Below, one piece after another: positions 5,868 to 56,427 of a stretch of 64,000 bases of DNA. The notes beneath the pieces were generated by a model. That model was not told where the DNA came from. It searched no databases and saw only the letters and a program-made list of their open reading frames with translations. The DNA is from Paraspadella gotoi (Eukaryota > Animalia > Chaetognatha), in NCBI GenBank assembly GCA_051294375.1, contig CM119267.1, forward strand, positions 12,595,081-12,659,080. The letters run 5' to 3'. The position numbers were made by a program, and so were the translations under genes. Positions within the stretch are counted from its first letter, which is position 1. Each line of letters opens with the position of its first letter.

Positions 5868-6150
5868 TATGGTGGACCAAAATCCACCAACCATTCATTA
5901 GCGGCCATTGGTGTCGGAGGCAAGTCATTTGCCTTCCAACCTAAAGGTCCGGTGTTCTAGCCCTGTGATCACCTAGCATTTAAGAGGGACGGGGCGCTTA
6001 ACCCGCCTGTAACACGGTGTAACAACCTGATCCGAAGCTCAGGGACTGCTTATATTGAACAATTCTGTCACTAACACATAACAATATTTCTTGTCTCTTC
6101 ATTGGTGAGCCCGACTTCCGAACACCACACCAACAACAACACTTTCAGGC
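5868..6150 (+). mobile_element. TRIM 5' LTR + PBS + truncated internal region
   Basis: LTR 5868-6101, PBS tggtgagcccgac from 6103, internal region breaks off at ~6150. Confidence 0.85.
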
Positions 6151-8315: not shown

Positions 8316-10256
8316 CTATGTTTATAAAATAGTAAATTAAAAAAAAAATTTTGAACTTTTAAACTTTTAATAAAGATTTAGGTTCTTCATAAAAAGTTAA
8401 ATCAAAAATATAAAATATGTTATAATAAATTCTGTCATCTTCAGCATTTAAAACGGGAAAAAAGGTAAAAATTCTTAACTTTTTATTCTCTGTAATAGAA
8501 ACTTACATATGTTAAAACATTTTAGTCATTTTTTGCGGTCTAAACATGAAAATATCATATAACATATTTTATAAACGTTTCTTATTTTTTTACGGAAAAT
8601 CCAAATTTGTTTTTAAAAATAAAAAAAATATTTTGAAATTTAATAATTTTATAAGGATATTACTACATGAATAATTAATTAAATAATTAAATTTACTATT
8701 ATGCTATCACAGATGAATGAAACCCGGAAACAGAGGAAAGGATTAAGGAAGAGGATTCCGGAAGAGGAAGAAGATTCTAGAATGATTTCGAATATGATTT
8801 TGGTGTGGCGGTATATTCACACCGCCTCACGTCCACCATCCTTCAGCCAAATCCATTGGCTCAGAGGGGGAACACACCACACCATCCATGCGTAGTGTTC
8901 CATCCACAGTCCTAACGACTTCCCTCTGCGTTGGCAAAGCGAGATCGTCCTAGGATAACCGCGCCAGTGACTGGAAGCGTTACTGAGGGTCGGAAGCCCC
9001 AAGCCAACAGTGAGATGCCCCATCCCAATGGGCATCACAGGCAACCCGGCTGTTGCCATATTGGAAGGATTTATTTTTTTTTAATTACATATCCATAGGC
9101 AGCAAAAAAATAATGTTCAATCGCTCAATCTTTTCATCACTCCACCCTACTAATTAACCAAAGAGGCTTCTTATCAATCTTATGAATTCATTTTATTCTC
9201 GTGTAATCGCATAATTATCTTGAAATACGCCCATAAAAGAAAGTTTTTGTTGCGCAACACTTTAATATTGACGGTTCTTGTTTCTCTCCGCCCCGTCCTT
9301 TCTTTTTCCGCCCATTTTCCGTTTCGCCATTACGCCTTTATTTTCGTCACCCGGTCTTTGTTTATTATTTGTTTGTTTGTTTTTCTTTGTATTTTCCTCT
9401 GCTTACGTTGCGCGGGAAACGTCGCCGGTTAAACGGGGGCGATCGACATGTTTCTTCGTTGTCGGCGACGTTAGTTGCCATGGCGAAGGGGAAAGGGATG
9501 ATGGGAGGGTGGTTGTCGTCTTCGTCGCCGTCGTTCCTTTCAAAAATTTACCCACTATTGGTGAGGTTTCACATCAATTTAACTGTTATATACTATGTAT
9601 GTATCGTAATGCTCTTTTGTTTCATTTTTTAACCTGAAAAAAAGAATATTAAAAGCCATTTTTCGCTCCCGTTCTCCTTTTGAAATTAACCGAACTCTTT
9701 CGTACTTTCTCTATATCTCCCTCTCTCGTCAAGTGGTTCCCCTTTTCGCCGGCGATCACGTGACCCGTGAGATTGCGGCGTCGTCGGGCGCAGGAAATGG
9801 GAATCAATTCGAGACGATCGATTCGACGCCGGCCCGGCCGGCTTTAGATTCCACGCCGGATCTGTGGGATCCCGGCGTCGAAATCGTTCTAGTCCCGGCG
9901 ACGTAAGCCCTCCGGTTAACGATTTCCGGTCGGACGACTTGAGGTAACGAGGCTTGTAATTCGGGGCCACGCCCACCAATTTTGTCGCTGCCGGAAATAA
10001 GATCCGAAATTCTTTTTCCACTTGCGTCGTTGGTGGGGATTATTTTTCGCGAGAGGTGAGTGTACGTACAACTGATCGTCGATAAAATACAGAGAAAAGG
10101 TTATGTTAACTAGGGGGACGTTTGGGGTTGATGGGAGCTGGGGCATCTCACCATTTCACTGGCGTGCTTAATGTTTATACCTGCACCATCACACTTCAAC
10201 CAGCGTGTCCGTGACAGGATTAATCCCGGAATTTAAATTTGGCAAGCGGTAGTTCA

Positions 10257-12328: not shown

Positions 12329-12752
12329 TGATGAACGGTTGGTGGATTTTAGTCCACCATACATCCCCCCCTCCTGTAGGGAGAAGTCTGTTGCGTCTCT
12401 TCAGTGAATTGTTGTTGGCGGAAAGTTCGTCACCAAGATGAGGAATGTCGCCTGATGTGTTGTGGGCGGAAAGTGCATCGCCAGGTTGAGGCATGTCGCC
12501 TGAAAATGTTGTTGTTGCTCTTGTGTTCGGAAGTCGGGCTCTCCAATGAATTATTGTTATGTTTTAGTGATAGAACCGTTCATTATAAGCAGTCCCTGAG
12601 CTTCGGATAAGGCTGTAACACCGAGTTACAGTCGGGTTAAGCGCTCGGCGGCCACTGGGCTAGAACCCTGGACCTTTGGGTTGGGAGGCGAATGACTTCC
12701 CTCCGGCACCAATGGCCGCTGAGGAACGGTTGGTTGATTTTAGTCCACCATA
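12329..12752 (-). mobile_element. TRIM: 5' LTR, PBS, internal region, PPT, 33-bp 3' LTR stub
   Basis: 5' LTR 12752-12547 (two small deletions); PPT ggaggggggga then TG then TATGG at 12361; the 3' LTR stops immediately before the tRNA-like module. Confidence 0.85.
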
Positions 12753-22249: not shown

Positions 22250-23094
22250 TAAGGCGTAGTGAAAGTTACATACAAAAATTATAAAAGTCAATTATGAACA
22301 ACTATGGTGGACTAAAATCCACCAACCGTTCATCAGCGGCCATTGGTGCCGGAGGCAAGTCATTTGCTTCCCATCCCAAAGGTCCGGGGTTCTAGCCTGG
22401 TGGTCGTCTGGCAGTTAAGAGGGACGGGGCGCTTAACCCGCTTGTAACACGGTGTTACAGCCTGATCCGAAGCTCAGGGACTGTTTATATTGAACGGTTT
22501 TGTCATTCATAACAATAATTACTGTTTCTTCACAACATACCATCAGTTAATATTAATTTATAAAAAAAATTAATTTTATGTTTTTTAATTTTTGCAGTAA
22601 GCTATATTTATATATAGTACTATCCTTATAAAATCAAAAAAATTCAAAATAGTCTTTTCTTAATTTTGATTGCAGATTTGAATTCCTCGTCAAAGTTGAT
22701 ATAAGAAAATATAAATCATTTTTAAAAATTCTTTCATTAAGTGGGTTAAAAATTAAAAAAACTATATTTAATATATAGAAAGTTAATTTTCAGCTTAAAA
22801 TATATGTTTTTTATAATTTTTAATCCATTTAATAAAGGAATTTTTCAAAAAGAGTTATATTTCTTATTATCAAATTTTTATGACGAATCCAAATCTGAAA
22901 AAAAATCTTAGAAAAAACTGTTTTGAAATTTTAACATTTATTGGTTTAGTACTAGTATAAATATGGCCAACTTCGTAAATTGTAAAATTTATTATAATTT
23001 TTTTATTACATAAATGTTCATTAGTATAATGTTGTTCATTCCTTACTTTTAAAATTTTAATAAAAGTTATATTTATAAATTTTACTACGCCTTA
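22250..23094. mobile_element. Non-autonomous hAT-type element A
   Basis: TIR TAAGGCGTAGT(G/A)AAA; 8-bp TSD ATGAGTAA (22242-22249, 23095-23102). Related fragments at ~37690-37924 and ~39800-39916. Confidence 0.8.
22303..22532 (+). mobile_element. Solo LTR of tRNA-bearing TRIM
   Basis: TATGG...CTTCA flanked by a perfect 4-bp TSD CAAC. The empty site gaacaacatacc is seen in the paralogous host repeat at ~37730. Confidence 0.9.
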
Positions 23095-27106: not shown

Positions 27107-27909
27107 TTTTAGTCGAATCTGCTTTCAGCAGATCCCGACTCTATAATTCACTTTGTCGGTCCGTCGGTCCACCCCCTTAATATTGTCGGGCACTCATTTA
27201 TATCATGTCAGAACATCAAATTATGATAAATTATGCAAAAAAAAAAACGATGTCCGTCTGTCCGTCTGTCTGTCTGTCCATCCGTCCTTCCGTCCGTCCT
27301 TCCGTCCGTCCGTCCGTCCGTCCATCCCACCTTATCAAAAAACACTAATTACACGTGATTGGATGAATGGATTGGAATGAAATTTTGTGTGTGGGTAGGG
27401 AAGTGTGTGATTGAGCTGTATATGAAGTTTCGATGGAATCGTCCGAGTGGAAATGAGTTTAAATGGAAAAAATAAAAAAATATATTTCACTATTTGAACA
27501 CCAATTACTCATGAATGGATGGGGCGATTGACTTGAAATTTTGTATTAGGGTAGAAAAGTGTGTGATTAAACTGGAAATCAAGTTTTGGTGGAATCGTTT
27601 TAGTGGAAATGAGTTTAAATGGAAAAAAACAAAGAACCTGTTTCACTAATTGATTATGCTTCTTTTTCTTTTTATTTTAAATGTAAATGCAAGATGTAAT
27701 AAATAATCAAATAATTAATCAGTTAATTTAATCAATTAGTCAATTAATTAATCATAATTAATTAATCAGTCAATTAATCCAAAAAAGAAACATTTCAGAT
27801 CAAATTAATTAATTAATTGCCTAATTAATTACATAATTAACTAATTATTAATTAATTAATTACCGATAATGATCGTGGGCAGATCCGACATTGTTTGCTC
27901 AAACTTGTT
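27107..27909 (+). mobile_element. HINE-like element, full length
   Basis: Both subTIRs, long (GTCY)n tract, 3' end aaacttgtt. Confidence 0.8.
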
Positions 27910-29658: not shown

Positions 29659-29842
29659 TCTTCCCTCCTTTTCATCATGTTTTTTTTCACCTTCCTCTTT
29701 TTTTTTTTTTCGTTTTTAACACAAAAAAAGAATAATTTTCTTTTTCCCACAACGCATTAGGCTTGACTAACAATGTTTTTTCGTTCTTCAAATTCACTTT
29801 ACATGCATAGAAAGTATCAATCGTTTGTGATGATCGAACCCT

Positions 29843-30445
29843 TACCTTTATTTTCTCGTATTTTTGTCTTTTACATTGGTGAGTCCGACGTGATCCAATA
29901 GAGAAGACGAAAATACGAGAAAATAAAGGTAGGGAAAAAGGTGGAGGATTGTGACGATGTAAGAGAAGTAGAAAAGAAGTGAGACGAGCTCTCTCCTGAT
30001 CCACTTTTATCATCGCCCAGACCAACTTGACCTTACGGTCTCCTCGGTCCTATTGCTGTGTCTAGTCAATCTAAGCTAGGGCAAAGTGACCGTGTGGAGA
30101 GACCTGCACGGAGAAAGAGGAGAGAGGAAGGGTTAAGAGAAATTGAGACTATGGTGTAAGTCGCCTCATCCCCCCTCAAGTTCGACCTTAGGGGTTCGAA
30201 CTGACCCTATTTACAGTTGAGTGACTTGTACTACTAGTTAAAGAACAAAGTACTTACAATATTGTTTCTCCTTGGAGGAATATTTGACCAAACAAATCAT
30301 TTCCCTATTCCGTACTTCTTATTTTTAAAATTTCTTCCCAAAATTATTTTTTAGAGAAGAAATATATGTAAATAGTTATTGTAGAAGACAAACCCCTTTT
30401 TAGTGGGTCCCCTCAATTGTTTCTCCTAGACCTTATTGTTTGTAT
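29843..30445 (-). mobile_element. Second copy of the Gypsy 3' UTR/PPT/LTR, plus an opposed LTR end with PBS
   Basis: LTR 30168-29899 is homologous to 7931-8209; PPT 30169-30177; a + strand LTR end at 29843-29875 is followed by the 18-nt PBS TGGTGAGTCCGACGTGAT. Confidence 0.8.
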
Positions 30446-31843: not shown

Positions 31844-33111
31844 TTACCTCGCCAAGGAATCTTGGCGAGATAATGCAAAGTAGTCGTCATTGTCGTCGTT
31901 GTCGTCGGTGTCGTCGTCGTCGCCGTCGTCACGCTGTTTTTATCAGCAGATCCCGACTCTATAATTCACTTTGTCCGTCGGTCCGCCCCCTCAATATTGT
32001 CGGGCAATAACTTATATCATGTCAGAACATCGAATTATGATAAATTATGCAAAAAAAATGATGTCCGTTCGTCCGTCTGTCCGTCCGTCCGTCCATCCGT
32101 CCGTCCATCCGTCCGTCCGTCCGCCCCACCTTAGCAAAAAACTCCAATTACTCGTGATTAGAAGGATGGATTTGAATAAAATTTTGTGTGTGGATAGCTA
32201 AGTGTGTGATTGAGCTGGATATGAAGTTTCGATGGAATCGTCCGAGTGGAAATGAGTTTAAATGGGAAAAAAAATATATATTCACTATTTGAACACCAAT
32301 TACTCATGATTAGATGGGCTGATTGACCTGGAATTTTGTATGTGGGTAGAAAAGTGTGTGATTGAACAGGAAATCAAGTTTCGATGGAATAGTATGAGTG
32401 GAAATGAGTTTAAATGGAAAAAACAAAAAACCTGTTTTACTAATTGATTATGCTTCTTTTTCCTTTTATATAAATGTATAAGCAGGATGTATTAATAAAT
32501 CAAATAATTAATCAGTTAATTAATCAATTAGTAAATAAATTAATCAATAATTAATTAATTAGTCATCAATCAATCATCCATCCGTCCCACCTTAGCAAAA
32601 AGCTCCAATAACTCGTGATTGGCTGGTTGGATTAGAATTAAATTTTGTGTGTGGGTAGGAAAGCGTGTGATAAAGCTGGATATAAAGTTTCGATGGAATC
32701 GTGTGAGTGGAAATGAGTTCAAATGGAAAAAACATAAGTCGCATTTACTAAAATCTTTTTACTTATTTTAACCAATAAATACTCTAATTAATCATAATTG
32801 GATGGATAGATTGAGTTGAAATTTTGTGTGTGGGTAGGAAAATGTGTGACGAAGCTTGAAATAAAGTTTCGGTGGAAACGTACCAGTGGAAATGAGTTTA
32901 AAATGAAAAAAAATATGAGTCACATTTACTTGAATCTTTTATTTAATTTAACCCATGATAGATTGAGATGAAATTTTGTGAGCCGGTAGGAAAGTGAGTG
33001 AAGAAGCTACATATAAAGTTTTGACGGAATGCAAGTTGAAAAAATGATGCAAGTTGAAAAAATGATGCAAGTTAAAAAAATCTTAAAAACATAAGGATCG
33101 TCGCAATTGCA

Positions 33112-34562: not shown

Positions 34563-35979
34563 AGATTTTTTTTCTATCTTTCCTCGCACAAAAAAAAACA
34601 AACTTTCAACTCTACCAAAAATTTTTATTCATCGCACAAAAAAGTTTACAAATTTTTATTTCCACAATTCAACAAGACAAAAAAAGAACCTCGTGCATAC
34701 CTTCAGAGGCAGAGGTTACCTTTTTCTATTCTGTCAGTATTCATCCTCATCCAGCTTCAGGATACATTTTTTATTTACCTTCCTTTCATGTATACCTACT
34801 TTTTTTCCACCCATCTATTTTCACCTCAAACCTAATCACCTTACCTACATCCTCCTTACCCACTCCCCCTCGTCCTTTGAGATTACCCCCCCCTGCCTCC
34901 TTCTTTCCAAGTCTCATTCGTCTTGAGGCCTCGTCCATCATCTCATCTTCGTCCTCAAATCCTTTTTCTCTCATCTTTTTCCCATCTCCTTTTATCTTTG
35001 CTTAATTATCCGAGTCCCATTTGCAGTCACGTTTTTTCTTTTTTTTCACCGAGGATTTCCGTCCCACAAAAAATTGCCGTTGAATCTAGTATATATTGAA
35101 ATATATAAAATATAAAATATTTCAAAAGGCATCTCGCTCCCCTAAAAAGGACAATCTTTTTAATTACGTTCAAGTCACGGACGTTTAGAATCTAAATATG
35201 ATTGTAAAATTTTATCTTTGTTTCCATCTTAAAATTTATTTTGACACTTATTTTTAAACTTTAAAACCAGGAGCTGAAACGTCGATCGAAATAATCTAAA
35301 AATGCCCAGGTTATTTAAAAAAATGGGCGCTAATTTTTGCTGAATTGAAAAGTTAACTTACATTCATTATGTGATAGTAGGCAAACAAGAAGAGAGTAGC
35401 AATAGCAACGAAAGAGGTCGTAAACCTGGAAAACCGAATTTCTATCACACGTTTTTTATACCTCTCGGCTTCTTTCATCCATGAACTCTCATCCTCAATC
35501 TTCTATATTCACTTCCATCAAAAAGAAACAAGTGAAGAGACAGTAATTATTATTATATGTTAGTGACAGAACCGTTAAATATAAGCAGTCCCTGAGCTTC
35601 GGATCATGCTGTAACACCATGTTACAGGCGGGTGAAGCGCCCCGTCCCTCTTAACTGCTAGGCGGCCACCGGGCTAGAACCCCGGACCTTTGGGTTGGGA
35701 GGCGAATGACTTGCCTCCGGCACCAATGGCCGTCTCTTCAGTGAATTGTTGTTGGTGGAAAGTGCGTCACCAAGTTGAGGCATGTCGCCTGATGAGTTGT
35801 TGGCGGAAAGTGCATCACCAGGTTGAGGCCTGTCGCCTGAAAGTGTTGTTGCTGTTGTGTTCGGAAGTCGGGCTCACCAATGAAGAGACAGTTATTATTA
35901 TTATATGTTAGTGAGAGAACCGTTCAATATAAGCAGTCCCTGAGCTTTGGATCAGGCTGTAACACCAAGTTACAGGCGG

Positions 35980-37526
35980 TGTATTGAACTAAGTTCGTAG
36001 AGGTGGCTGTCGTTGACGACTAACTTCCTGAGCTGATTCTGCTCTATCAAAACGAGAGGAATTCGAGTATGATGGCGCGAAATTGACGATGGCGCCGGTC
36101 GCGATGTTCAAAGATATGACGACAAAGTCGAAGCCCAGGACTTGACGAATCAAGTATCTTTAGCAGTCTAAGATAGAGTTAGAAGTCCTGGGCAAGGAAT
36201 AACATAACATTTAATACACACTCAGCAAATATATATAAAGTTGAAAGAATCTTTCTTACTTGTTTCTGAAGCCAAATTTGTAGAAAAAGGTTGCCTCTAT
36301 CACAAGGAAAGTCCACCAATCCAGCGATCACAAAGGTTTCTTTAAAAAGAAGTTTCCGAGATATCTTATTTTAGCGAATTATTATCTTTTGAAAAAGTAG
36401 TGAAAACGCATTGCAAGATCTGAAAAGTCACACGTCGATAGAAATCGTGCCTCGAATCTATCGAAATCGCGGGAACCAATCAGAATCAGCCATGCGTTGC
36501 TCTCGGAGAACTGTACTTAGTATAGTATATATTAGGACTAAGCTCTGACGAACAAAGCCTGAGGTTTTTTAATATATTCTTATACCGGCCAAGGCCAATT
36601 GGACCTCATTTGTTGAACAGGAACATACCTCAGTCACGTTTATATCGTTTTCAAGGAAAAAAATCCCTTTCATTTCTATATAAATAGGACTAAGCTCTGA
36701 CGAACAAAGCCCAAGGTTTTTTTAATATATTCTTATACCGGCCAAGGTAGAATGATGGCAATATTGTTAATATTAAGTTTCAAAAAAATCCGACTATAAA
36801 TATAGAAAATATTAACCAAAATCTTCGGAAAATTCACCCCTTCTTTGGAAGATTTTCGCCATAGAAGATTTTTCCCGAATCTGACTCTATAAATTATATC
36901 TATAAATAAAATTTTCACTAAAATGGACTAATTCACTTTACCATGATCGTATCATATCAAAATAACCTAATAAAATGTAAAGAAAAATTTTGAGAGCCCT
37001 TCAGACACTTTGCTAAAGGATTTCAAAATTGGACCTCATTTGTTGAACAGGAACATACCTCAGTCACGTTTATATCGTTTTCAAGGAAAAAAATCCCTTT
37101 CATTTCTATATAAAATCAGAGATGGAAAATTTTTCTGTCCAGAAGCAGTCTATTTGTTCTGGATTGTTTGATATCAAGATGTTGATGATTTGACAAGAGA
37201 AAAAAAATGCAAGCCCTTCAGATGCAACAGGATCGGAATCAAGTGTTTTTACATCGATATTTTACCAGAATTTTTACCAGGAGCGTTTATATTGTTTGGT
37301 AGTCAGATTTGAACGAAAATCTCCATTGAAAAAGTCTTCCTCGATCTCTAAAAACGACGTAGACTCCTATATATATACTATAATACAAGATCGAAACCAG
37401 AGATGTCGCTGTGATCGCTGAAGAAACGGAAAATCCTTGCGTTAGTAAGAGAGAATAAAAGATTATCGGGGAGAAAGTAGAGAAGCTTGGTTTTCTTCAA
37501 AATATAATGATTATTATTTCGTAACA
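35980..37526. mobile_element. 1547-bp insertion, probable solo LTR
   Basis: TGT...ACA ends; 5-bp TSD GGCGG (35975-35979, 37527-37531) splitting a TRIM LTR; internal direct repeats; TATA-like ~37368 and AATAAA ~37454. Confidence 0.75.
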
Positions 37527-37561
37527 GGCGGGTTAAGCGCCCCGTCCCTCTTTACTGCTAG

Positions 37562-37633
37562 GCGGCCACCGGGCTAGAACCCCGGACTTTTGGGTTGGGA
37601 GGCGAATGACTTGCCTCCGGCAGCAATGGCCGC
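37562..37633 (-). other. tRNA-like module in TRIM LTR (not a functional tRNA)
   Basis: 72 nt closed by a 7-bp stem GCGGCCA/TGGCCGC; A-box-like TGGTGCCGGAGG (family consensus); B-box-like GGTTCTAGCCC in a CCGGG/CCCGG stem. The anticodon arm does not pair. Confidence 0.75.
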
Positions 37634-37968
37634 TGATGAACGGTTGGTGGATTTTAGTCCACCATACCAGGTGCCCTGCCCGGTTGAACGTAGTGAAAGT
37701 TACGTACGAAAATTCTAAAAGTTAATTGTGAACAACATACCATCAGTGAACATTAATTTATAAAAAATATTAACTTTCTGTGTTTTAATTTTCGCAGTAG
37801 GCTAAATTTATATATAGTACTATCCTTAAAAAATCGAATAATTTAAAAATAGGCTTTTCTTAATTTTGATTGCAGATTAGAATTCCTCGTCAAAAGTTGA
37901 TAAAAGAAAATTTAAGTCATTTTTAGAGGCAATTTGGTTTCATGTTTACAACGATTTTTATTTCAGAG

Positions 37969-40455: not shown

Positions 40456-41962
40456 ATAATAATACTTTTTTGAACCAAAAAAGGTGCAAGGCTTTTAGCA
40501 TTGCCAAATTAAAAAAATATTTAAAAAATAATTAACTCTATTTAAAATAAAAACAAATAACTAAATACTAAAAATGGTAAAAAATTAAATACATTTTTTG
40601 TTACCATTTTTCATTTGAAGTAACAATATTTTTTGCCTGTAACTTCTAAACGATTTGACCTACAAAAAAATAAAAGGAAGCTACTCACTATGATCGAAGT
40701 GAATGTTAAAATCGAAAAATTATACTAATGACATATTCGGATAGCTTAACACGAGTAATTCTTGAAAACTTTAGAGGTTATTCCCATAAATTTTTAATAT
40801 TTCCAAAAAGGACAAAAATGTTTCATTTTATTTTTTACGTTTCCTAAAGATGAATCAAACGCTAAGCGGAGTTTTTTTGGCTTTATTTAATTATTTTTAC
40901 CTCTCAAATACGGTAAAATGAAATTTTAAAGAGAAAAAAATGATTCAATAAGTTAAACCACTTCAAAATCGCAGTTAAAAAAATAATTTACTTAGTAAAT
41001 GGTTCTTATCGGGGTGTTAAAAAAAAAATTAATTTGAAAATCATTTTGGCATTACTCATTTTGCGGATCGTTGCGGATGAAATCCCGAACACATCAAGTG
41101 CGTTATAATATCAATCATTTTATTTAATTAGAATGGTAGTGATTCCCCATGATTCCCTTTATATTTTAAGCTAGTTTTCAAAAACTCAGATACAGTAAAA
41201 CCTTTTTAGAACAAATTTGTATTTAATCCATGCTTGGTATCCAGTTGTTTATCAATATTTAAAAAAAAAAGTAAATTCATCATAAAGTTCCTGGAATATA
41301 GCTCGACAAAGTGAGTCTGAAATAGAGAAAGCCTTATATCTCCTAAAGAAATGATTTTTGACAACTGATATTGCTTGAGAGGTTTCCGATGATAGTCCCT
41401 AATTAATTAAAAGCATATATATTTTTGTACGATGGACTACACTTTTTCCGAGAAAAAAAATTATTTCGATGATAGTGCTACTGAAAAGAAATTCAATATA
41501 GATTCAAAAACGTTCTGATTTTTTAAAAATTAAATAAGTTTACGAGTAGATATCTTTTATTAAAAATGTCCTATACTTTTTTCCTAGATAGTAAAGGAAG
41601 CGTTCCTCCAGCTTCATGCCTTGGGGGGAAAAGGCTGCGGTGGCGCACGCAGCGGCGGGAGCAGCAGCGGTGGGAGCGGCAGTGGCTGTGGCGGCAGCGG
41701 AGGCCGCGGAGACGGCGGGTCAGAGCACGATCGAGTTATGAGTGTCCAGGTGAACGAAGGTGTTTGTTTTAAATGGATACGGGGCTCGTCGAAGTTGGAT
41801 AGATTGAGACGAAAGTGTGAGAGAGAGAGAGAGAGAGAGAGAGCAAGCTACAGACAAAGAGAAAGAGAGAGTGAGAGTGATTCGACCTCATAAGTTGAAA
41901 GTATGTTTGCGACGGGCGACAAATGGCTGGTGGTCGTCGTCACCGTCGTCGTGTTTGTCCTT

Positions 41963-41995
<33 letters not shown>

Positions 41996-42623
41996 TCCGT
42001 CGATGATAAATATAGTGCCTGATGCTAATAAAATTCCACGGGGAAAAAAATCGTGCGGGTTTCTCCTTTATTGAAATTGCTCGGGCCGCGTCCATAAAGA
42101 ATTTACTTTATATTCACGGTTCAGCCGTTTATTTTTTTTTTCTGTACTTACCGTCATTCTCCTTTGTCTCGGTAGACGAAAATAATGTTTTTAACAATAA
42201 AATTTCTAGCTTCTACTAATTTTTTTGTAACTGTAACGTGTAATGTTTTCGTATTTTGGAATAACTATTTCACTGAAGCCATTTTTTTCTGCCATTGTGG
42301 ACAATCGCCACGATAGTGGGTGACGACCACAAAAGCGACGGCGCTGGCGAAAACGATTATGACCTCGATGATCTTGAATGATGATAAACGAAGACCACGA
42401 CGACGGCGACGACGACTACAACGACGATAACGACGACGACGAAGACGAGGCGCTAAAAATTCGCGAAAACTTGGACGAAAATGTTTTTCACCTTGACCTA
42501 AACGTTACCAAATTTTTTTAGTCGGATCTGCTTATCAGCTGATTCCGACTCTATAATCCACTTTGTCGGTTCGTTGGCCCCCCCTTAAATCTTGTCGGGC
42601 ACTCACTTAGATCATGTCAGAAC

Positions 42624-44118
42624 TAGGGTTCCGTTAACCGCTAATTTTTAAAGAACTTCGCTTAACTTCGGTTAACCGTTAAAATCGGTTAATTTTATAA
42701 TTTAACTTTAAATTTAAAATATTAATATTTAAAACTAATTAAAGTATTTAATGGTATTTTCTCCTTAACTCCGGCTCCTGAATCGTCTTTATCTTCTATT
42801 TCAGATAGATGAGGTACACATTATAGTTGATAAATGAGAAAATTGGTTTGAGAAAACTATCTTGAATCTACCCATCAGCTAATCAAATAAAGCATTATAA
42901 TAAATCTTTCTTTTGACTCGTAGCATAATAAAAATATGAAAAAAGACAATGAAATAAAAAGCATAATGTAATTCTAATTATGAATATTTTGTTTTCTCTT
43001 TCTCTTTCTTTCTTTCGCTTTTCCTTTTTTTTCCCCTATTTCTCTTCCTCATTATTTTTATAGTTGTTAGTTTCTTGAAAGCATGTTTTCTGTTTTAGTC
43101 TTTCATAAACAATGACCATAAATATAAATATAATTATGAATATTGTGTTAACTGTTAAGACTTTCTTTTCGTTGCGTTTATAGATAAGTGAAAGCAAAGT
43201 TTATTTGTTAACAAACAACGGGTTTTTATTTAAAAAAAACTGACATGTTTCGACTCTCACGCGCTGATGTAGCCTCGGAAAAACTAGAGTTGAAACATCT
43301 CCGTTTTTTGTAAAGAAATAAACTTTGTTTTCTCTTAATTATGAATATCAATTTATTAATTTAATGGTTGAATGATCGATTGATCAAAAGAGTTATTAAT
43401 TAATAAATATTTTTTTCAATTTTATTAAAGTAAAGTATATCATCATTGAAAGATAGTTTTAGTTAGCCTTAATGTCTTTTCAAATATTTATTCCATCTAT
43501 TGTTCATTTTTTATATGTTTTCTAATAATTTTTTTTATTTTAGTTTTTTTTTAATTTATTCGGTTTTATTTTATTTACTTCCTTGTTCATTTTAAAAAGG
43601 GAAAAAAAAGTGAAAAAAAGTAAAATTAGAAAGATTATTTATTTTTTATTAGCAAAATAGAATATTATTACATGTAAAAATTTTATTTGCAAGAAAATAT
43701 ATGCAGATGCATATCATATTTCAAAATATTCTTTGATGTAAATGTATAAAATTAGCTGAAAGGAAAAACGAAAACAATTACGAGAAAGTAAAAAAAAATA
43801 CTGAAAGGGCAGAAAAAAATGATAAGAGATTAGGATATAAAAAAGTTTATAAAGGGTTGAAAATAACAAAGGAAAAAAAAGGGAAAAAATGTAGAAGAAA
43901 CAGGGGGAAAAATATAGTGAGAGAGGGAGAGGAGGATAAGAGAAGACAGGAAAAAAAACTTTTCTCCTAAAAAATCAAAGTTTTCATAACAAAAAATAAC
44001 AAAAATCATACTTGAAAATTAACCGAATTTACCTGTTAAAATAAATATATTAACGGTTAAGTTAAAATTATTTTTAACCGTTAATAACCGTTTACTGTTA
44101 ACGGTTATCGGAACTCTA
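42624..44118. mobile_element. Non-autonomous hAT-type element B (duplicates 51167-52689, 62449-63970)
   Basis: 17-bp imperfect TIR TAG(G/A)GTTCCG(T/A)TAACCG; 8-bp TSD GTCAGAAC; clustered subterminal TTAACCG motifs. Confidence 0.85.
43160..43335. mobile_element. Older, degenerate inverted pLTR/hammerhead (also at ~51710-51890 and ~63000-63180)
   Basis: gacatgtttcgactc ... gctgatgtag...gagttgaaacatctccgt, with opposed AATAAA/aaactttg flanks; the core is mutated. Confidence 0.6.
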
Positions 44119-45573
44119 GTCAGAACATCGAATTATGATAAGTTGTGCAAAAAAATGTCCGTCCGTCCGTCAGTCTGAAAGTCCCTCCCACCTTTTCATT
44201 AAACTCCAATTACCCGTGATTGGATGGATGGATTGAAATAAAATTTTGTGTGTGGGTGGGAAAGTGTGTGAATAAGCTGGATATAAAGTAGGACTGGAAA
44301 AGAGTTTAAATTAGAAAAGCAAAAGACACATTTATTTGAATTTTTAAAAGTTTACCTTTCTCTATCCCTTTGATTGATTGATTTATCTATTGTTTGATCA
44401 AATTATGCCAGTTGATAAAATTATGCCAGTTGATGTCTGTTAATGTTAATGCAACTTGATTAAATTATGTAAGTTATTCAAATTATGCAAGTTAATCAAA
44501 TTATGCAAATTGACCAAATTATGCAAAATTACCAAATTATGCAAGTTAACTAAATTATGCAAGTTGGTATTGGCGCAGCTACTGGTAATGATTGATAGAT
44601 CAATTGATTTATAGATTTTTTCATATATTTTATATATATATATATATATTTTCATATATTTTTCATATATGTTAAGATCACAAATTGAAAGTCAGAAAAT
44701 ATTACCGTGATTTATCTTCGGATTAGCTTATTACCGCTTAATTATCATAGGCAGATCCGACGTCGTTTGCTCAAACTTTTTTTTTAATCTTTGACTTTGG
44801 TTCTTGTTTTATTTGGTTATTTTTCATTCACACACAATCTCTGATTTGAAATCCAATAAGTATAACACTAAGGCTCTAAGGCACTATAGCCTGCCTAATG
44901 CCTATTGTCCAAAGTCAGGGGCACGATATTAGTAAGTTTTTTGAAACAATAAATAATTTTCTAATGGTTGTACTAATTTCATTTTTGTCATCTACTTGTA
45001 TTTTGATGCTAGTGCCGAGTATATTAAAGTAATCCCCGATCTGCTACTTTAAGAGTGATCCTTTTATCCAACGGAAACAGTTCAAAAAATATTATACGAA
45101 TTAATTGAAAGGGTTTGGTTGTTAATAAACGAGACTAGACCTTAATGGTCTAAACGAGACTGCGAGAAAGTCTTGTAAAAGGGATGGCGTCATTAACCCA
45201 CCAATATTAATGGGTAATTTTAATATAGGTTGTACCAATTTCATTTGATCTGAATCCTAAAAAGAATCTTTTTTTAAAATTAATTCATCCAGAAGCTCGC
45301 GCACCCGTGACCTCACCTTTGCAGCAGTTTAAGGAGAGAAGGAGAAAGAGAGAGAGAGAGAGAGATAGGATGAGAATAGCATAAGAGAAATGGGTGATTT
45401 TTTTTTCTGAGGAAAGCTCGAGTCTCGCGCTTCGGAGCGACGACGAAAATAACTCGTCTTAATCGATTCTTGATTTGAACTTTTTTTATATCTTCTTCTT
45501 CTTTAAAAAGTTTCAAAGAGAAAAAAAAGATGATCACCTCCGTCTTTCTCCCATTCTTCATCCTGACTGGATG

Positions 45574-45666
<93 letters not shown>

Positions 45667-47123
45667 CTTGCCATTCGTCACTTCTTCGGTCATTGACCTA
45701 TAACTCGAATGACAACGGCTGAAAAAGAAAAGAGAAGAGCTGTCTGATGTTAATTCTCTTTTTTCATTACTTCTTTCACTTACTTCCTCACGTTTCGCAT
45801 CATGACCGGTGGAGACTTTTTGCCGAACTGACTTTTTGACTTTTCGTCGTCCTAATCGTCTTAATCGTCGTCGCTTTGTCGCTTTCGTCGTCGTAGTCAT
45901 CGTCTTCGTCGTCTTCATAGTCGCCAGCGTCTTTGTCGTCTTCATCTCCGTCACTTTCGTCTTCGTTGTCGTCGCTTTCGTCGACATCGTTTTCGACGTC
46001 GTTGTCATCGTCGGCCTTGGCGTCGACTCCTAATTTCCGTTAAGTTAATGAGCGTGAGTCGTTAAGCGTGAGTCGCGCTTATGTTGTTTTCGTCGTTGTC
46101 GTCGTTGTCGTCGTTTCTCTCTTTTTATTTATCTCCTCCTTCGTTCACCTTTTTTTTTTGACGAGAACGTCTTTTTTTGTCCAAATTCTTTAACCGAAGA
46201 TCAATAATTATTTTTTACGTTTCTGACTGTTGGATTTGTTTCGTCTTTCTGTTTCCGTCTTCCTTTTGTTAGAAATAGTGTAGTATGTTATATGTACTAA
46301 AATTCAATTTTCTTTTTAACTCATTAATTCGCTTTCTGATTTTTTTGAATTGTTCTGATTATTTTTACTCTCACCTCAAAACACGGACTCAGTAGCCCTG
46401 CATTGAATTTTTTACTGCGGCTGAATCAACTTTCGGTGAACTTTACTGTGCTCCCTATTTGACAGGGATACGAAGAATCACGCCGCAGCAGCAAAAATTA
46501 CGGGGATCAAAAACTATGTCTACTTCTAAAAAATAATCATAAACGAAATACTATACTACATTCAAAATACATTCGAAACTCATCCCGAGAACTTTATATC
46601 AACAACGTGTGTTAAATTTTATTCTGCCGATGACATAAAAGTCAAAAGTTTTAGAAAGTCGGCAAAACTCAGACCGCGTCATTAAATTATGTATCTCAGC
46701 AAAAGAAGAGTTGCCTGTCTACGTTTCACGTAAACAAAATGGCGTGCCTCATGATGCAGAGGAAACCTATCAATAAATTGTGTTCTTTCTGCACTAAAAA
46801 AAATGGAAAAAACTATTTTTTTCCTCACGTAATCCTTTTCCTCTGCTACAAAATAATTTTTTGGCAAAATCGTTGGTGTCCTTTAAGGTCAGGGATCAGT
46901 CAATTTAAACATTACGAGAACTTTATATACTATATTAAATACCCCTTCGCATCTCTCTCGTAAGTATTCCAGAAAAAATGGTTTTTCCCCCAAATTTTTT
47001 TTCTCAGTAAACCGTGATTTTCGAGTAAAGACTGATTCTATGGAGAAAATTCTGAGTTGCAATGACGTCATCGCACATCTCGACTATGATGTTGTGCATC
47101 TCGCTAAAGTCAAAAGTACAGAG

Positions 47124-47570
47124 TGAAGAGACAGTAATTATTGTTATGTGTTAGTGACAGAACCATTGAATATAAGCAGTCCCTGAGCTTCGGATCAGGC
47201 TGTAACACCGTGTTACATGCGGGTTAAGCGCCCTGTCCCTCTTAACTGCAAGGCGACCACTGGGCTAGAACCCCGGACCTTTGGGTTGGGAGGCGAATGA
47301 CTTGCCTCCGGCACCAATGGCCACTGATGAACGCTTGGTCGATTTTAGTCCACCATACATCCCCCCTCCCGTAGGGAGAAGTCTGTTGCGTCTCTTCAGT
47401 GAATTGTTGTTGTTGGTGAAAAGTTTGTCACCAAGTTGAGGCATGTCGCCTGATGTGTTGTTGGCGGAAAGTGCATCGCCAGGTTGAGGCATGTCGCCTG
47501 AAAGTGTTGTTGTTGCTGTTGTGTTCGGAAGTCAGGCTCACCAATGAAGAGACAGTAATTATTGTTATGT
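47124..47570 (-). mobile_element. TRIM: 26-bp 5' LTR stub, PBS, 187-bp internal region, PPT, complete 234-bp 3' LTR
   Basis: 3' LTR 47357-47124; PPT 47360-47370; PBS ending at 47543; internal ~50-bp tandem duplication. Confidence 0.88.
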
Positions 47571-50500
47571 ACATAAAATTAGTAACTCTTAAGATATATG
47601 ATTTTTTAAAAAGGATATAGATAAACAAATATTATAATTATAATAATGTGGTTAGTAATGAAAAGGATTTAAAGTATTTTCCTTCACGTAATTCAGGAAA
47701 AATTAAGTGTTTTTGTTCATGCACTGCCTCTCCATAGTGAAATTACAATTAATACTTTAAGTATTATTAAAATTTTAGCACAGGTCTGGGAAGATTCTAT
47801 TTCTAAAACTAAGAAAATGATAAAAGAAAATAGTTATGGTTTTTACTAAAAAAAGGGTATGTACTATAAGTTATTTTACATAAACAATTTCATGATTATT
47901 ACCAGAAAACCTTTTATAACTATTGAGTCAACAATCAGATAATTCTTTATCTTTGTAAAAAATATATTGCCTTGTAACCCTCTTAGTCAATTTTAAACCA
48001 GTATGTTATGGTCTTTATTTTAACTTACATTTATAATATTTTCAAAATTAGTCATGAACGATTCATGAAACGATTAACTTTTGACGAAAAAAAATCTTAA
48101 AAGACTAGGATCGAGCCTCCCTTCAATGATAACCAAATATTGATGCGATGATAACCAAATGATTGATGCGATGATAACCTAGGAAGCCGCTATAGAAAAA
48201 GAAGCCAGTAACTTTTTTCTTATATTTTTGTATCGATAGATGTGGAATGACGGGAATATTGTAAATCTCAAGTTTCGCTTTAATCGGACCTCACATTGTG
48301 GAAAAATCTTAGGAAACCCAACAAAATTTCACCCCTTTTTTTCAACATTCTCGCCTTTTAAGATTTTCGCCGATTCTAACTTCCTCTTACAAACTTATAA
48401 TTCCGCTAGTTAATTTTTTTTTCTTAAACGAGCGAAGGGAATCCACAACTTTCTGTTATTTTATGATTTCTGGGTAAAAAATATAATAAATTACATTAAC
48501 ATTGGAATATTATGAAAGTATAATGTCTTGTGAAGCCTGTGAGAGTTAAATAATTAAAAAATTCGCCTATTTTATTATTGAAAAATGACAGTAAAGTGAA
48601 GAAGTTGAATGTCTTCCGGCTCATTTCAGTAAACATCCCTGTTCTCTAGCATAAAATAATGTTTACTTTTTGCTGGTGGAAAAGAAAGATAAATACTTAG
48701 GCTGTGATGGGGTGAATAATATTTTGTAGAATTTTGTAAGCATGCTTGTAAAATCAGACAAGCAAATATTTAAGTGACAAAAAATTAACATTTTCTTTAT
48801 CCAAAAAACTTTAAAGTTTTACTAGAGTACAATTTAGCCTTTTTTCTTTCAGAATCATTAATAAGAATTAAATTTTCATTTATTCTTATAGGGTGTCATT
48901 AGTTTTAAAATTCATTATAATTTTGACTTAGTTTGACACTCACCCTGTAAGGAGGTTTCAGCATAAGTAATTCTAAAATTGTATCTTGTATGTGCCCTAT
49001 GATTATGGCTTCATTTTGGTACTATTACCATCCCTTTATCTTTATTTTTTCAAAAGATATTAGGAAAAATCAGTTTTTTCTCAACCTTCCTTTTAATTTC
49101 TTTTTAAATAAAAAATTCGCGATTCAAACCGGACTATTTCATTATGTCAAAATCATTATAAAGCTATCAGAATCGCGAAATTCGAAGTCGCTCATGTAAC
49201 AGGAACATATAGCAATCCCGTTTGCAATTTTAAGTTTGTAAACTTTCCCTTTCATTTCTATAGTAAAAATGAGGTTTGAATATTCTCCGGAGATGAGTAG
49301 TGCATTTCCCCTGGCTTGTTTGATATTAAATCCTTTATCAAATGCCATAAAACGAATAGGACAAACTCTTCAGATGTAACACTCTCGGAATCGTGCGTTT
49401 TTACAAGTGTTTTTTAACCGAATTTCTGGCAAACGCGTTTGCAATTTGGGTAGTCAGATTTGAACGGAATTCTCTATTAGAAAAATGTTGAATTTTTTTT
49501 AAGCGAGATTCTCGTCGAGATAACCAAATATTGATGCGATGATAACCAATAATCGATGCGATGATAACCAAATGATTGATGTGATAATAACCAAATGATT
49601 GATGTGATAATAACCAAATGGTTGATGCGATGATAGTCATTCATTGATGTGATGATAATTGTAACGAATAGTCGTCTAAGCGCTACGGTCGGCGTGTTTA
49701 AAGCATAACGACGTTTGTTTACACGCGTTACCAGGGAGATAGAAAACGCGTTTAGTCTGACTTGTTGATGAAGCGAGGAGACGGCATGGGAATAATTAAA
49801 ATGCAGTTTCGTGTTTTCGATCAATGCTCACTTGCCTGACTAGTGAGTATTTAAATGAAATGATCATTAAAATGATAATTGATATATTTAACATGAATTG
49901 ACATTGTTCCCTAATTAATTAAAAGCATATATATTTTGTACGATGGACTACACTTTTTCCGAGAAAAAAAAATTATTTCGATGATAGTGCTACTGAAAAG
50001 AAATTCAATATAGATTCAAAAACCGTTCTGATTTTTTAAAAATTAAATAAGTTTACGAGTAGATATTTTATTAAAAATGTCCTATACTTTTTTCCTAGAT
50101 AGTAATAGGAATCGTTCCTCCAGCTTCATGCTTGGGGGAAAAGGCTGCGGTGGCGCACGCAGCGGCGGGAGCAAGCAGCGGTGGGGAGGCGGCTAGTGGC
50201 TGTGGCGGCAGCGGAAGGCCGCGGAGACGGCGGGTCAGAGCGACGATCGAGTTATGAGTGTCCAGGTGAACGAAGGTGTTTGTTTTTAAATGGATACGGG
50301 GCTCGTCGAAGTTGGATAGATTGAGCAACGAAAGTGTTGAGGGGGGAGGAGAGAGAGAGAGAGAGAGAGGCAAGCTACAGACAAAAGAGAAAGAGAGAGT
50401 GAGAGTGATTCGACCTCATAAGTTGAAAGTATGTTTGCGACGGGCGACAAAAATGGCTGGTGGTCGTCGTCACCGTCGTCGTGTTTGTCCTTGTCTCGTC

Positions 50501-53500: not shown

Positions 53501-53852
53501 AAGTCAGGGGCACGATATTAGTAAGTTTTTTGAAAACAATAAATAATTTTCTAATGGTTTGTACTAATTTCATTTTTGTCATCTACTTGTATTTTGGATG
53601 CTAGTGCCGAGTATATTAAAGTATCCCCGATCTGCTACTTAAAGAGTGATCCTTTTATCCAACGGGAAACAGTTCAAAAAATATTATACGAATTAATTGA
53701 AAGGGTTTGGTTGTTAATGAACGAGACTAGACCTTAATGGTCTTAAAGCGAGACTGCGAGAAAGTCTTGTAAAAGGGATGGCGTCATTAACCAGCCAATA
53801 TTAATGGATAATTTTAATATAGGTTGTACCAATTTCATTTGATCTGAATCCT

Positions 53853-54408: not shown

Positions 54409-54462
<54 letters not shown>

Positions 54463-55972: not shown

Positions 55973-56427
55973 TGAAGAGAGCAGTTAATTATTGTTATGT
56001 GTTAGTGACCAGAACACAATTGAATATAAGCAGTCCCTGAGCTTCGGATCAGGCTGTAAGCACCGTGTTACATGCGGTTAAGCGCCCTGTCCCTCTAACT
56101 GCAAGGCGACCACTGGGCTAGAACCCCGACCTTTGGGTTTGGGAGGCGAATGACTTGCCTCCGGCACCAATGGCCACTGATGAACGCTTGGTCGATTTTT
56201 AGTCCACCAAATACACTCCCCCTCCCGTAGGGAGAAGTCTGTTGCGTCTCTTCAGTGAATTGTTGTTGTTGGTGAAAAGTTTGTCACCAAGTTGAGGCAT
56301 GTCGACCTGATGTGTTGTTGGCGGAAAGTGCATCGCCAGGTTGAGGCATGTCGCCTGAAAGTGTTGTTGTTGCTGTTGTGTTCGGAAGTCAGGCTCACCA
56401 ATGAAGAGACAGTAATTATTGTTATGT
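55973..56427 (-). mobile_element. TRIM, duplicate of 47124-47570
   Basis: Same element inside copy 2 of the 8.5-kb duplication. Confidence 0.85.

What the first reader, a model, noticed from the sequence alone, without database searches (positions are those of the whole stretch)
35533..37666. Miniature LTR retroelement whose LTR carries a tRNA-like Pol III module (6 copies)
Seen: what looks like a tRNA-SINE is really a ~650-bp TRIM: LTR (~230-234 bp) - PBS TGGTGAGCCCGAC - ~187-bp non-coding interior - PPT - LTR, with 4-bp TSDs. A solo LTR at 22303 has its empty site in the same window. Each LTR holds, 33 nt from its start, a 72-nt module with a 7-bp acceptor-like stem and A/B boxes, among further hairpins (tggtgga/tccacca, ggaggc/gcctcc, tgtaaca/tgttaca, cctga/tcagg). 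Known: Cassandra TRIMs carry 5S-derived LTRs and Helenus TRIMs tRNA-like LTRs, so the architecture has precedent; this family and host may be undescribed. Inference: a Pol III-transcribed parasite of a Gypsy element.
Basis: partly seen in the sequence, partly recalled or inferred. Interest (0 to 1): 0.8.

Follow-up and report, generated by a model that had tools for sequence, protein, structure and literature searches.

The report
Twister ribozyme in tRNA-headed mini LTRs
This is a small, abundant, protein-free LTR jumping element whose end repeats carry a tRNA-like likely promoter and, right behind it, a fold predicted to be a self-cutting twister RNA, so it would likely spread through a self-cut RNA of about 420 bases, a design the papers I searched describe only for plant elements with a different ribozyme.

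Summary
The TRIM is real and not a SINE: LTR 230-234 bp, tRNA-Trp-type PBS, about 187-bp interior, PPT. In four sequencing runs, foreign flanks pile up at the two LTR ends. Corrections: the six loci are five insertions, none intact; the focal copy is split by a 1.55-kb insert and lacks its PPT; a perfect 4-bp TSD is shown only at the solo LTR; the tRNA likeness is weak (p about 0.01-0.03).

Its 'further hairpins' form a type-P5 twister-like motif directly behind the tRNA module (descriptor met by 1 of 20,000 shuffled LTRs). A second LTR family in the window (8804-9060), with no BLAST similarity, has the same layout, a swapped pseudoknot and a different self-complementary linker in place of P1. 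Rfam's P5 model does not detect either motif.

Best reading: a Helenus-type TRIM that likely works like an LTR retrozyme. Pol III would transcribe it, and the twisters would cut out a 421-nt unit for a Gypsy helper. Cleavage, circles, Pol III use, helper and host are untested. The scan noted this same element on other pieces of this genome before.

The parts
35533..37666 (-). Focal element: damaged full-length TRIM with a nested insert
   Evidence: 5' and 3' LTR halves 107/112 and 93/99 identical; flanks CTGG/CTTG
37527..37666 (-). 5' LTR, first part (5' hairpin, tRNA-like module, 5' half of the twister-like motif)
37561..37633 (-). tRNA-like module (A box, B box, acceptor-like stem) of the 5' LTR
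   Evidence: ARAGORN -ps90/-ps85 possible pseudogene tRNA-Gly(CCC); not found at default
35980..37526 (.). Nested 1.55-kb TGT...ACA insert with 5-bp TSD GGCGG; splits the 5' LTR twister between T2 and P3
   Evidence: that it is a solo LTR of another family is inference
35881..35979 (-). 5' LTR, second part (P3, P4/L4, P5 3' strand, U5 end TTCA)
35867..35879 (-). Primer-binding site, tRNA-Trp type, one T after the LTR end
   Evidence: 12 of 13 letters match the tRNA-Trp PBS of Gypsy-32_NVi and Helenus-2_SyJa in Fig. S2 of PMC10886601
35733..35880 (-). Non-coding interior (148 bp here, PPT deleted; 184-190 bp in three other loci)
35533..35732 (-). 3' LTR lacking its first ~34 nt
35585..35658 (-). 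Twister-like motif of the 3' LTR; this copy has C at the predicted general-acid A and a P4 mismatch
22303..22532 (+). Solo LTR with 4-bp TSD CAAC
   Evidence: empty site 37689-37736
22411..22484 (+). Type-P5 twister-like motif meeting the whole descriptor; predicted cut after 22434
22428..22433 (+). Six-base self-complementary linker in place of stem P1
   Evidence: homodimer -8.3 kcal/mol, no monomer fold
5868..6150 (+). 5' LTR + PBS + start of the interior (truncated copy); twister-like motif 5976-6049
12329..12752 (-). 5' LTR (18-bp deletion in the twister) + interior + PPT + first 33 nt of the 3' LTR
47124..47570 (-). Last 26 nt of the 5' LTR + PBS + 187-bp interior + PPT (about 47360-47370) + full 3' LTR; unit between equivalent cut sites 421 nt
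55973..56427 (-). Duplicate of the 47124 copy inside a duplicated segment
8804..9060 (+). Solo LTR of a second family with the same layout; TSD TTGG; termini TG...TA
   Evidence: no blastn match to family 1
8930..9008 (+). Second-family type-P5 twister-like motif
   Evidence: Rfam twister-P1, E 0.14; family-1 model, E 0.043

Best explanation
This is a non-coding miniature LTR retrotransposon whose LTR carries a tRNA-like module followed by a predicted type-P5 twister ribozyme; it is likely transcribed by Pol III from the 5' LTR, predicted to cut itself at the same site in both LTRs into a 421-nt unit that would circularise, and likely copied and integrated by a Gypsy helper. Shown: the LTR-PBS-interior-PPT-LTR layout, LTR-bounded insertions, the motif order, and its recurrence in a second LTR family with changed stems. 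Inferred steps, with my odds: Pol III starts at LTR nt ~34 (0.6). The twister cuts U|A after LTR nt 132 (0.7). The self-complementary P1 linker lets the two LTR copies of one transcript pair, so cutting waits until both are made (0.45). A host ligase closes the unit into a circle (0.5). A CsRn1-type Gypsy RT primes with tRNA-Trp and, reading round the circle, rebuilds LTR-interior-LTR or a lone LTR without a strand transfer; its integrase makes the 4-bp TSD (0.6).
For: Twister grammar: the motif parses as P2'-GA-T1'-linker-UAA-P2-GC-P3-P4-U-T1-AAGC, the permuted form of the layout in Table 1 of PMC8501958. Its P3 arms resemble the S. mansoni ones printed there. A generic descriptor hits 2 places in the window, both in these LTRs, and 1 of 20,000 shuffled LTRs and 0 of 20,000 shuffled cores.

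Independent family: 8804-9060 has no blastn similarity to family 1 but the same order of parts. A model built from 4 family-1 copies ranks it the best locus outside family 1 in 64 kb (E 0.043, rough). Rfam twister-P1 aligns its 3' half in register (E 0.14). T1 is CCG/CGG in family 1 and CGG/CCG in family 2, and P3, P4 and P5 differ in sequence yet pair.

Prediction made before and met: this copy's wobble at T1' (8945) reads C in 98.0-99.9% of laid depth in 4 of 4 runs. 8981 also reads a Watson-Crick P3 partner (99.4-100%). Other variation of 5% or more within 8930-9008 lies in the P3 loop (8972, 8976) and in the C-run after L4 (8996-9000). In family 1, 47234 reads the T1-pairing base in 98-99.6%.

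Both linkers are self-complementary with different sequences (-8.3 and -11.8 kcal/mol as homodimers). A 3-nt P2 occurs in natural P5 twisters above Rfam's cut-off (L008, L010). P1 is dispensable and P2 flaws are tolerated (PMC5408937, PMC11662667).

The T4 run of the 47124 copy is private (47419 reads G in 99.8% of X2 depth). 2.4-8.2% of depth reads the canonical A at A-box position 14 (47310). Two truncation points fall at LTR nt 33-35, the predicted start. CsRn1 lineage = tRNA-Trp PBS and 4-bp TSD (PMC3630058). A Gypsy integrase remnant lies at 6945-7208.
Against: Rfam's twister-P5 model hits neither family at E<=10, although it finds 6 of the 7 P5-pattern viral loci submitted.
The descriptor was relaxed after I had seen the sequence (3-nt P2, one mismatch).
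Family 1 has only two clean P2 pairs plus a mismatch or bulge, and an A-U pair where PMC5408937 describes an essentially invariant G-C closing P4. Family 2 keeps a C.A mismatch next to L1 (8942 shows no variant at 5% or more).
Only 2 of 7 family-1 LTRs spanning the region meet the descriptor. No compensatory change is seen within family 1 (0 of 25 pairs, 4 copies).
MFE folds are no more stable than shuffles (z +0.6 to -1.0), and a competing hairpin can pair the UAA region.
The family-1 model scores natural twisters only weakly (best E 0.033).
Absence of T4 is weak evidence (20% of shuffles lack one). Family 2's A/B boxes are not significant (183 of 2000) and ARAGORN does not call it at any threshold tried.
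No breakpoint pile at the predicted cut site appears among the rows shown.
Confidence: 0.6

Rival explanations
1. An ordinary Helenus-type TRIM: Pol III-driven, with normal two-jump reverse transcription of a linear RNA. The twister-like stretch is a captured, decayed ribozyme or a structural signal that no longer cuts.
For: No Rfam P5 hit; short flawed P2 and A-U closing pair in family 1; 5 of 7 copies broken in the motif; no covariation within family 1.
Against: Two families with no BLAST similarity keep both catalytic positions, both pseudoknots and a self-complementary linker. The common variation sits in the P3 loop.
Confidence: 0.15
2. The twister is active but only trims a linear RNA: it gives a read-through Pol III transcript defined ends in place of a T-run terminator. 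It acts as a monomer, and no circle is used.
For: P1-less twisters cut near wild-type rate (PMC5408937). Twister variants process linear Perere-3 RNA (PMC8501958). Several published Helenus LTRs show a T-run right after the B box, where this element has the ribozyme (by eye; not counted).
Against: Cutting both LTRs at the same site leaves no terminal repeat for the minus-strand transfer, so a linear unit could not rebuild LTRs unless only the 3' copy cuts. A self-complementary linker kept in two families suggests pairing of two copies.
Confidence: 0.17
3. A SINE-like or Penelope/Naiad-mobilised ribozyme retroposon that only mimics an LTR element.
For: tRNA head plus ribozyme is a SINE-like layout; animal retrozymes are linked to Penelope-like elements (10.64898/2026.07.22.740005); the termini are TA...CA and TG...TA rather than TG...CA.
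Against: PBS and PPT are in place. Flanks pile at fixed LTR ends in both families. Both solo LTRs have 4-bp TSDs, and no tails are seen.
Confidence: 0.04
4. The element and ribozyme are real, but transcription is by Pol II or by read-through, and the tRNA-like module is a structural relic (for example an RT or packaging signal).
For: Each box has one mismatch at a conserved position; tRNA significance is only p about 0.01-0.03. Retrozymes were said to lack promoters (PMC7761336), and one plant LTR has promoter activity of unstated polymerase in the passages seen (PMC9695139).
Against: Both families have box-like motifs in the same place; a minority of copies carry the canonical A14; two breakpoints fall at the module start.
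Confidence: 0.04

Closest known systems
Helenus TRIMs / TRIMp3 (Kojima 2024, PMC10886601); nearest in layout Helenus-2_SyJa and Helenus-2_SyUm of Synergus wasps
   Same: Non-coding TRIM under 1 kb, tRNA-like sequence with A/B boxes in the LTR, PBS, PPT, 4-bp TSD as in animal Helenus. The two Synergus families share the tRNA-Trp PBS, and by eye their LTRs show a hammerhead core behind the tRNA part.
   Different: No ribozyme is described for Helenus ('twister' 0 occurrences; 'ribozyme' and 'hammerhead' once, in a reference). Five probe strings from this element are absent from its supplement (line breaks could hide a match). Termini here are TA...CA.
Plant LTR retrozymes (Cervera et al. 2016, PMC4918200; review PMC7761336)
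   Same: Non-coding LTR element with a self-cleaving motif in each LTR, PBS, PPT, 4-bp TSD, solo LTRs, presumed Gypsy helper; unit-length RNA between the two cut sites.
   Different: They use a type III hammerhead and a tRNA-Met PBS, have 300-400-bp LTRs and 600-1000-nt circles, and occur in plants; metazoan retrozymes are stated to lack LTR, PBS and PPT. Here: twister-like motif, tRNA-Trp PBS, tRNA-like promoter module, 421-nt unit, and cleavage not shown.
Type-P5 twister ribozyme (Rfam RF02684; clan CL00120)
   Same: Order of strands, GA and UAA of L1, GC/GC T2, three-pair T1, L4 U-NNN-AAGC, P3, P4, P5.
   Different: The ~20-26-nt P1 hairpin of the natural examples parsed (L003, L004, L009, L011) is replaced by a 6-8-nt self-complementary linker. 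P2 is flawed; family 1 closes P4 with A-U; no model hit.
Twister variants of Perere-3 non-LTR retrotransposons, Schistosoma mansoni (PMC8501958)
   Same: Twister inside a retroelement, reduced P1, similar P3 arms.
   Different: Type P1, single copy at the 5' end of an autonomous non-LTR element; no LTR, PBS or PPT.
Cassandra and Ajax TRIMs (as described in PMC10886601)
   Same: Small-RNA-derived Pol III promoter inside TRIM LTRs.
   Different: 5S-derived, not tRNA-like; no ribozyme described.

Membership tests
Helenus (TRIMp3) | Non-coding TRIM under about 1 kb with two LTRs | tested here: met
   234+187+234 = 655 bp, as a composite of damaged copies; no ORF of 120 aa or more in it
Helenus (TRIMp3) | tRNA-derived sequence in the LTR (defined by Censor hits to tRNA/SINE2) | tested here: inconclusive
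   Censor/Repbase and tRNAscan-SE not available; ARAGORN default 0, relaxed 5 of 7 copies vs 2-3% of shuffles; no Rfam tRNA hit
Helenus (TRIMp3) | Box A (TRGCY, YGG) and box B (GGTTC) | tested here: inconclusive
   Family 1: GGTTC and YGG present, TRGCY not (TGGTG); pair matched by 12-23 of 2000 shuffles in two copies and 212 of 2000 in the solo. Family 2: TRGCY present, box B poor, 183 of 2000
Helenus (TRIMp3) | PBS complementary to a tRNA 3' end, and a PPT | tested here: met
   PBS 12 of 13 to the tRNA-Trp PBS in Fig. S2; host tRNA not available; PPT in 3 of the 4 loci whose interior runs to a 3' LTR
Helenus (TRIMp3) | 4-bp TSD (animal families) | tested here: met
   CAAC with empty site (family 1 solo), TTGG (family 2 solo); focal copy 3 of 4; other loci truncated. 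Small n
Helenus (TRIMp3) | Pol III transcription (proposed, not shown, for Helenus itself) | not testable with these tools
   needs RNA ends or ChIP
LTR retrozymes | Type III hammerhead in each LTR | tested here: not met
   No hammerhead hit in Rfam scans; the motif is twister-like
LTR retrozymes | PBS for tRNA-Met | tested here: not met
   PBS is tRNA-Trp type
LTR retrozymes | LTRs, PPT, 4-bp TSD, no coding capacity | tested here: met
LTR retrozymes | Self-cleavage and accumulation of circular RNA | not testable with these tools
   only contigs were available to lay
Twister ribozyme, type P5 | L1 UAA and GA, L4 U-NNN-AAGC, T2 GC/GC | tested here: met
   solo, 5868 copy and family 2
Twister ribozyme, type P5 | T1 pseudoknot with covariation | tested here: met
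   CCG/CGG vs CGG/CCG between two families; majority letters in reads pair; two families only
Twister ribozyme, type P5 | Stem P1 closed as a hairpin | tested here: not met
   6-8-nt linker with no monomer fold, pairs only as a homodimer; P1 is dispensable per PMC5408937
Twister ribozyme, type P5 | Fully paired P2 and G-C pair closing P4 | tested here: inconclusive
   family 1: two P2 pairs plus a mismatch or bulge, A-U closure; family 2: three P2 pairs plus C.A, G-C closure
Twister ribozyme, type P5 | Score above the RF02684 gathering threshold | tested here: not met
   no hit at E<=10; only RF03160 at 19.1 bits, E 0.14, for family 2
Twister ribozyme, type P5 | Site-specific self-cleavage | not testable with these tools
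   bench assay needed
tRNA-SINE (SINE2) | Copies begin at the tRNA head and end in variable tails | tested here: not met
   flank piles at LTR nt 1 and 234 in 4 of 4 runs; none at the head among 24 of 831 rows shown

The most novel reading that the evidence does not exclude
An animal LTR retrozyme lineage of at least two families with its own tRNA-derived Pol III promoter and a twister that works as an obligate dimer through a palindromic P1. The two LTRs of one transcript would have to meet before the 421-nt unit is cut out and circularised. With the hammerhead visible in Synergus Helenus-2, Pol III TRIMs with tRNA-Trp priming would have recruited different ribozyme classes more than once.
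Probability: 0.35. Interest if true: 0.87.

Novelty: new variant of a known kind. Interest (0 to 1): 0.72.

Why it matters
The reviews I read place LTR retrozymes in plants with hammerheads, say that animal retrozymes lack LTR, PBS and PPT, and say that retrozymes seem to lack promoters. A twister-bearing, tRNA-headed LTR element in what is likely an animal would break all three statements. It would suggest how Pol III TRIMs can define their RNA ends without a terminator or an R region, and add a genomic source of viroid-like circles. A natural twister that pairs through a palindromic P1 was not found in my searches. It is invisible to Rfam's P5 model, so such elements may be undercounted. The central claims can be tested with one in vitro transcription gel.

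Tried and rejected
- No whole genome is held, so no genome-wide TSD tally, copy number, intact copy or helper search was possible. Summed contig depths are no copy number; 11,199 contigs of run X2 were laid on the 47090-47600 stretch.
- No RNA holder listed. X9 is only guessed to be RNA and is contigs, so nothing on expression, RNA ends or circles.
- Rfam on the whole window gave only sub-threshold matches, mostly miRNA-like hairpins, none in these LTRs. Local scans gave no tRNA, hammerhead, pistol, HDV or twister-P5 hit.
- Pattern scans for relatives: viral contigs gave 2, 9 and 3 loci; metagenome contigs gave 0 and 2. L001, L002 and L012-L016 look like chance matches (L012-L016 have no Rfam hit; L001 and L002 judged by eye). 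L003-L011 served only as natural P5 controls: 7 of these 9 were submitted (L005 and L007, whose printed stretches repeat L004 and L006, were left out) and 6 passed. No relative outside this organism was found.
- My regex mis-parsed L008 and L010; their 3-nt P2 is taken from the Rfam alignment. The mafft alignment of natural twisters was too poor to build a model from.
- The cofold was off by one base and was redone.
- The R1 hit at 53939-54015 is a plain long hairpin. CTGATGA-like words in the interior were not pursued as hammerheads, since Rfam gave no hit.
- Host: Pfam scans of 7 + 69 ORFs found only an EGF protein above cut-off. The host is not determined; 'animal' is inference.
- Conservation of A/B boxes against the rest of the LTR: the variant table is cut (40 of 52 rows) and dominated by CpG-type changes, so it is inconclusive.
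- The supplement of PMC11662667 (tested natural twisters) could not be read and may hold similar motifs; the bioRxiv supplement is closed.
- The Synergus hammerhead was read by eye only and not scanned.
Full report
1. What is in the sequence. BLAST of the focal region against the window finds the LTR at six loci (alignment). The element reads on the minus strand at 35533-37666. The LTR is 230-234 bp and runs TATGG...TTCA. One T follows, then the PBS TGGTGAGCCCGAC: 6 window matches at up to 2 mismatches against 0.41 expected, five of them in this family. The interior is 184-190 bp, ends in a PPT in three loci, and is 148 bp without PPT in the focal copy. No locus is complete. The focal 5' LTR is split by a 1.55-kb TGT...ACA insert with a 5-bp TSD, and its 3' LTR starts at LTR nt ~35. 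The 12329 copy ends at nt 33 of its 3' LTR. The 5868 and 47124 copies are truncated. The 47124 and 55973 copies lie in one duplicated 4.4-kb segment, so there are five insertions. The solo LTR has TSD CAAC with an empty site at 37689-37736; the focal flanks match at 3 of 4.

2. TRIM, not SINE. Contigs of four runs (X2, X5, X6, X9; three studies, one organism label; X2 may be the source sample) were laid on 47090-47600. Unrelated flanks pile at 47124 (179, 121, 113, 46 contigs) and 47357 (88, 68, 47, 18), the LTR ends. None of the 24 of 831 rows shown lies at the tRNA head. The family is abundant (11,199 contigs laid in X2; not a copy number).

3. The tRNA-like module. It starts at LTR nt 34. 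ARAGORN at default and Rfam miss it. At 85% threshold ARAGORN calls it in 5 of 7 family copies, four as tRNA-Gly(CCC), against 20-28 of 1000 shuffles. The A+B pair has one mismatch per box and is matched by 12 and 23 of 2000 shuffles in two copies, 212 of 2000 in the solo. A minority of copies read the canonical A at position 14 (2.4-8.2% of depth). It is a decayed tRNA-like promoter candidate, not a tRNA gene.

4. Directly behind the module lies P5-(UAA)-P2'-GA-CGG-linker-UAA-CCC-GC-P3-G-P4-UCCGAAGC-P4'-P5', the circularly permuted twister order (layout from Table 1 of PMC8501958; parse). I noted this, before consulting earlier notes. A generic P1/P5 descriptor, relaxed after seeing the sequence to allow a 3-nt P2 and one P2 mismatch, hits only 5985-6042 and 22420-22477 in the window, 1 of 20,000 shuffled LTRs and 0 of 20,000 shuffled cores. 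Five of 7 LTRs spanning the region are broken. The four aligned copies show no compensatory change (0 of 25 pairs), as expected for a young family but uninformative.

The independent test is a second family. The solo LTR 8804-9060 (TSD TTGG; flank piles at 8804 and 9060 in 4 of 4 runs) has no blastn match to family 1. It has the same order of 5' hairpin, box-like motifs and twister-like motif, with T1 swapped (CGG/CCG against CCG/CGG) and different P3, P4 and P5. A model built from family 1 ranks it first among loci outside family 1 (E 0.043, rough; antisense matches of family 1's own hairpins score alike). Rfam twister-P1 aligns its 3' half (E 0.14). This copy's T1' wobble and P3 wobble are private: other copies read the Watson-Crick partner in 98-100% of depth, and remaining common variation is in the P3 loop and the C-run after L4.

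Against the twister: no RF02684 hit, while 6 of 7 submitted viral P5-pattern loci pass. P2 is flawed in both families. Family 1 closes P4 with A-U where a G-C is called essentially invariant (PMC5408937). MFE z-scores are not significant. In mitigation, L008 and L010 are natural P5 twisters with a 3-nt P2, and P1 and P2 flaws are tolerated in tested twisters (PMC11662667).

In place of the P1 hairpin both families have a short self-complementary linker: 6 nt, -8.3 kcal/mol as a homodimer; 8 nt, -11.8 in the window copy. In most family-2 copies the last base is G, giving G.U ends as in family 1. The palindrome-dimer idea came from earlier AI notes; I checked the complementarity myself, not the dimer.

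5. Mechanism. Shown: anatomy, LTR-bounded insertion, motif recurrence. Inferred: Pol III starts at nt ~34 and reads through. The typical element strand lacks a T4 run (47419 reads G in 99.8%), but 20% of shuffles lack one too. Two breakpoints at nt 33-35 are a weak hint of that start. Cutting after nt 132 in both LTRs gives LTR + interior = 421 nt with no terminal repeat, so a circle is the simplest template for rebuilding LTRs, as in the retrozyme model (PMC4918200). A tRNA-Trp PBS and 4-bp TSD are marks of the CsRn1 Gypsy lineage (PMC3630058). An integrase C-terminal remnant lies at 6945-7208 (2 hits among 611 candidates, both with PF00665); its CsRn1 assignment is recalled, not tested. A third LTR family shares the PPT and the PBS core. 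No helper is identified.

6. Comparison. It meets the structural features of animal Helenus, with tRNA ancestry inconclusive. It works like a plant LTR retrozyme but fails membership on ribozyme class and primer.

Ten literature searches listed no paper whose title or abstract start describes a twister in LTRs or an animal LTR retrozyme; subscription journals and Repbase/Dfam were not searched. Papers seen: PMC10886601 (main text parts 1-4 of 6, term search; supplement parts 1, 10, 11 and passages); PMC8501958 (part 3 of 9); PMC11662667 (abstract, sections 32, 33, 38; supplement unreadable); passages only of PMC4918200, PMC7761336, PMC9695139, PMC5408937, PMC3630058 and 10.64898/2026.07.22.740005; others as listings.

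7. Verdict. Real element; first reading partly supported and incomplete. New variant of a known kind (Helenus-type TRIM plus retrozyme logic, with a twister), interest 0.72. The scan has noted the same element on other pieces of this genome; those notes are unreviewed and are not counted as support. Cleavage, circles, Pol III use, dimerisation, helper and host remain untested.

Noticed in passing
window 8804-9060 (+): Solo LTR of a second tRNA-box/twister family, TSD TTGG, abundant in the runs; its interior and PBS are not in the window.
   Followed up: yes
window 35980-37526: 1.55-kb TGT...ACA insert with 5-bp TSD and internal direct repeats; parts are 68-71% like 48213-49485 and 57071-58340. 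Probably a solo LTR of another superfamily (inference).
   Followed up: partly
window 7650-8200 (+) and 29820-30440 (-): Third LTR-like family with the same PPT as the TRIM. At 29839-29936 a fold-back holds a longer tRNA-Trp-type PBS (29877-29895) after the same CA-T spacing. Candidate relative of the helper.
   Followed up: partly
window 6945-7208 (+): Remnant of a Gypsy integrase C-terminus followed by a PPT-like run; homologues carry PF00665.
   Followed up: partly
window 45607-49909 vs 54412-58763; 41396-45258 vs 49908-53852 vs 61205-64000: Large near-tandem duplications. The first pair has 101 gap openings and 10 mismatches, which looks like read error or mis-assembly; N gaps lie at 58785 and 61180.
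   Followed up: partly
window 12329-12362 and 35732: Two independent truncation points fall at LTR nt 33-35, the start of the tRNA-like module; a weak hint of the transcription start.
   Followed up: partly
PMC10886601 supplement, Helenus-2_SyJa-LTR and Helenus-2_SyUm-LTR: By eye a type III hammerhead core (GTC site, CTGATGA, GAAAC, three stems) follows the tRNA-like part; not mentioned in the paper.
   Followed up: partly
window 35745-35860 and equivalents: The TRIM interior is built of about 2.5 imperfect ~50-bp repeats; role unknown (packaging signal is a guess).
   Followed up: no
window 14640-15077 (-): ORF with a signal-peptide-like start and two EGF-like domains (PF00008, E 2e-7).
   Followed up: no
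window 53940-54030: Long near-perfect inverted repeat of unknown nature.
   Followed up: no
window 22255-22724 and 37689-37925; 1923-2304, 18249-19238, 27296-27654, 32095-33089, 44157-44300: Other dispersed AT-rich repeat families; one hosts the solo LTR and supplies its empty site.
   Followed up: no
L008:58-123, L010:58-123: Natural phage type-P5 twisters with a 3-nt P2, above Rfam's gathering score.
   Followed up: yes
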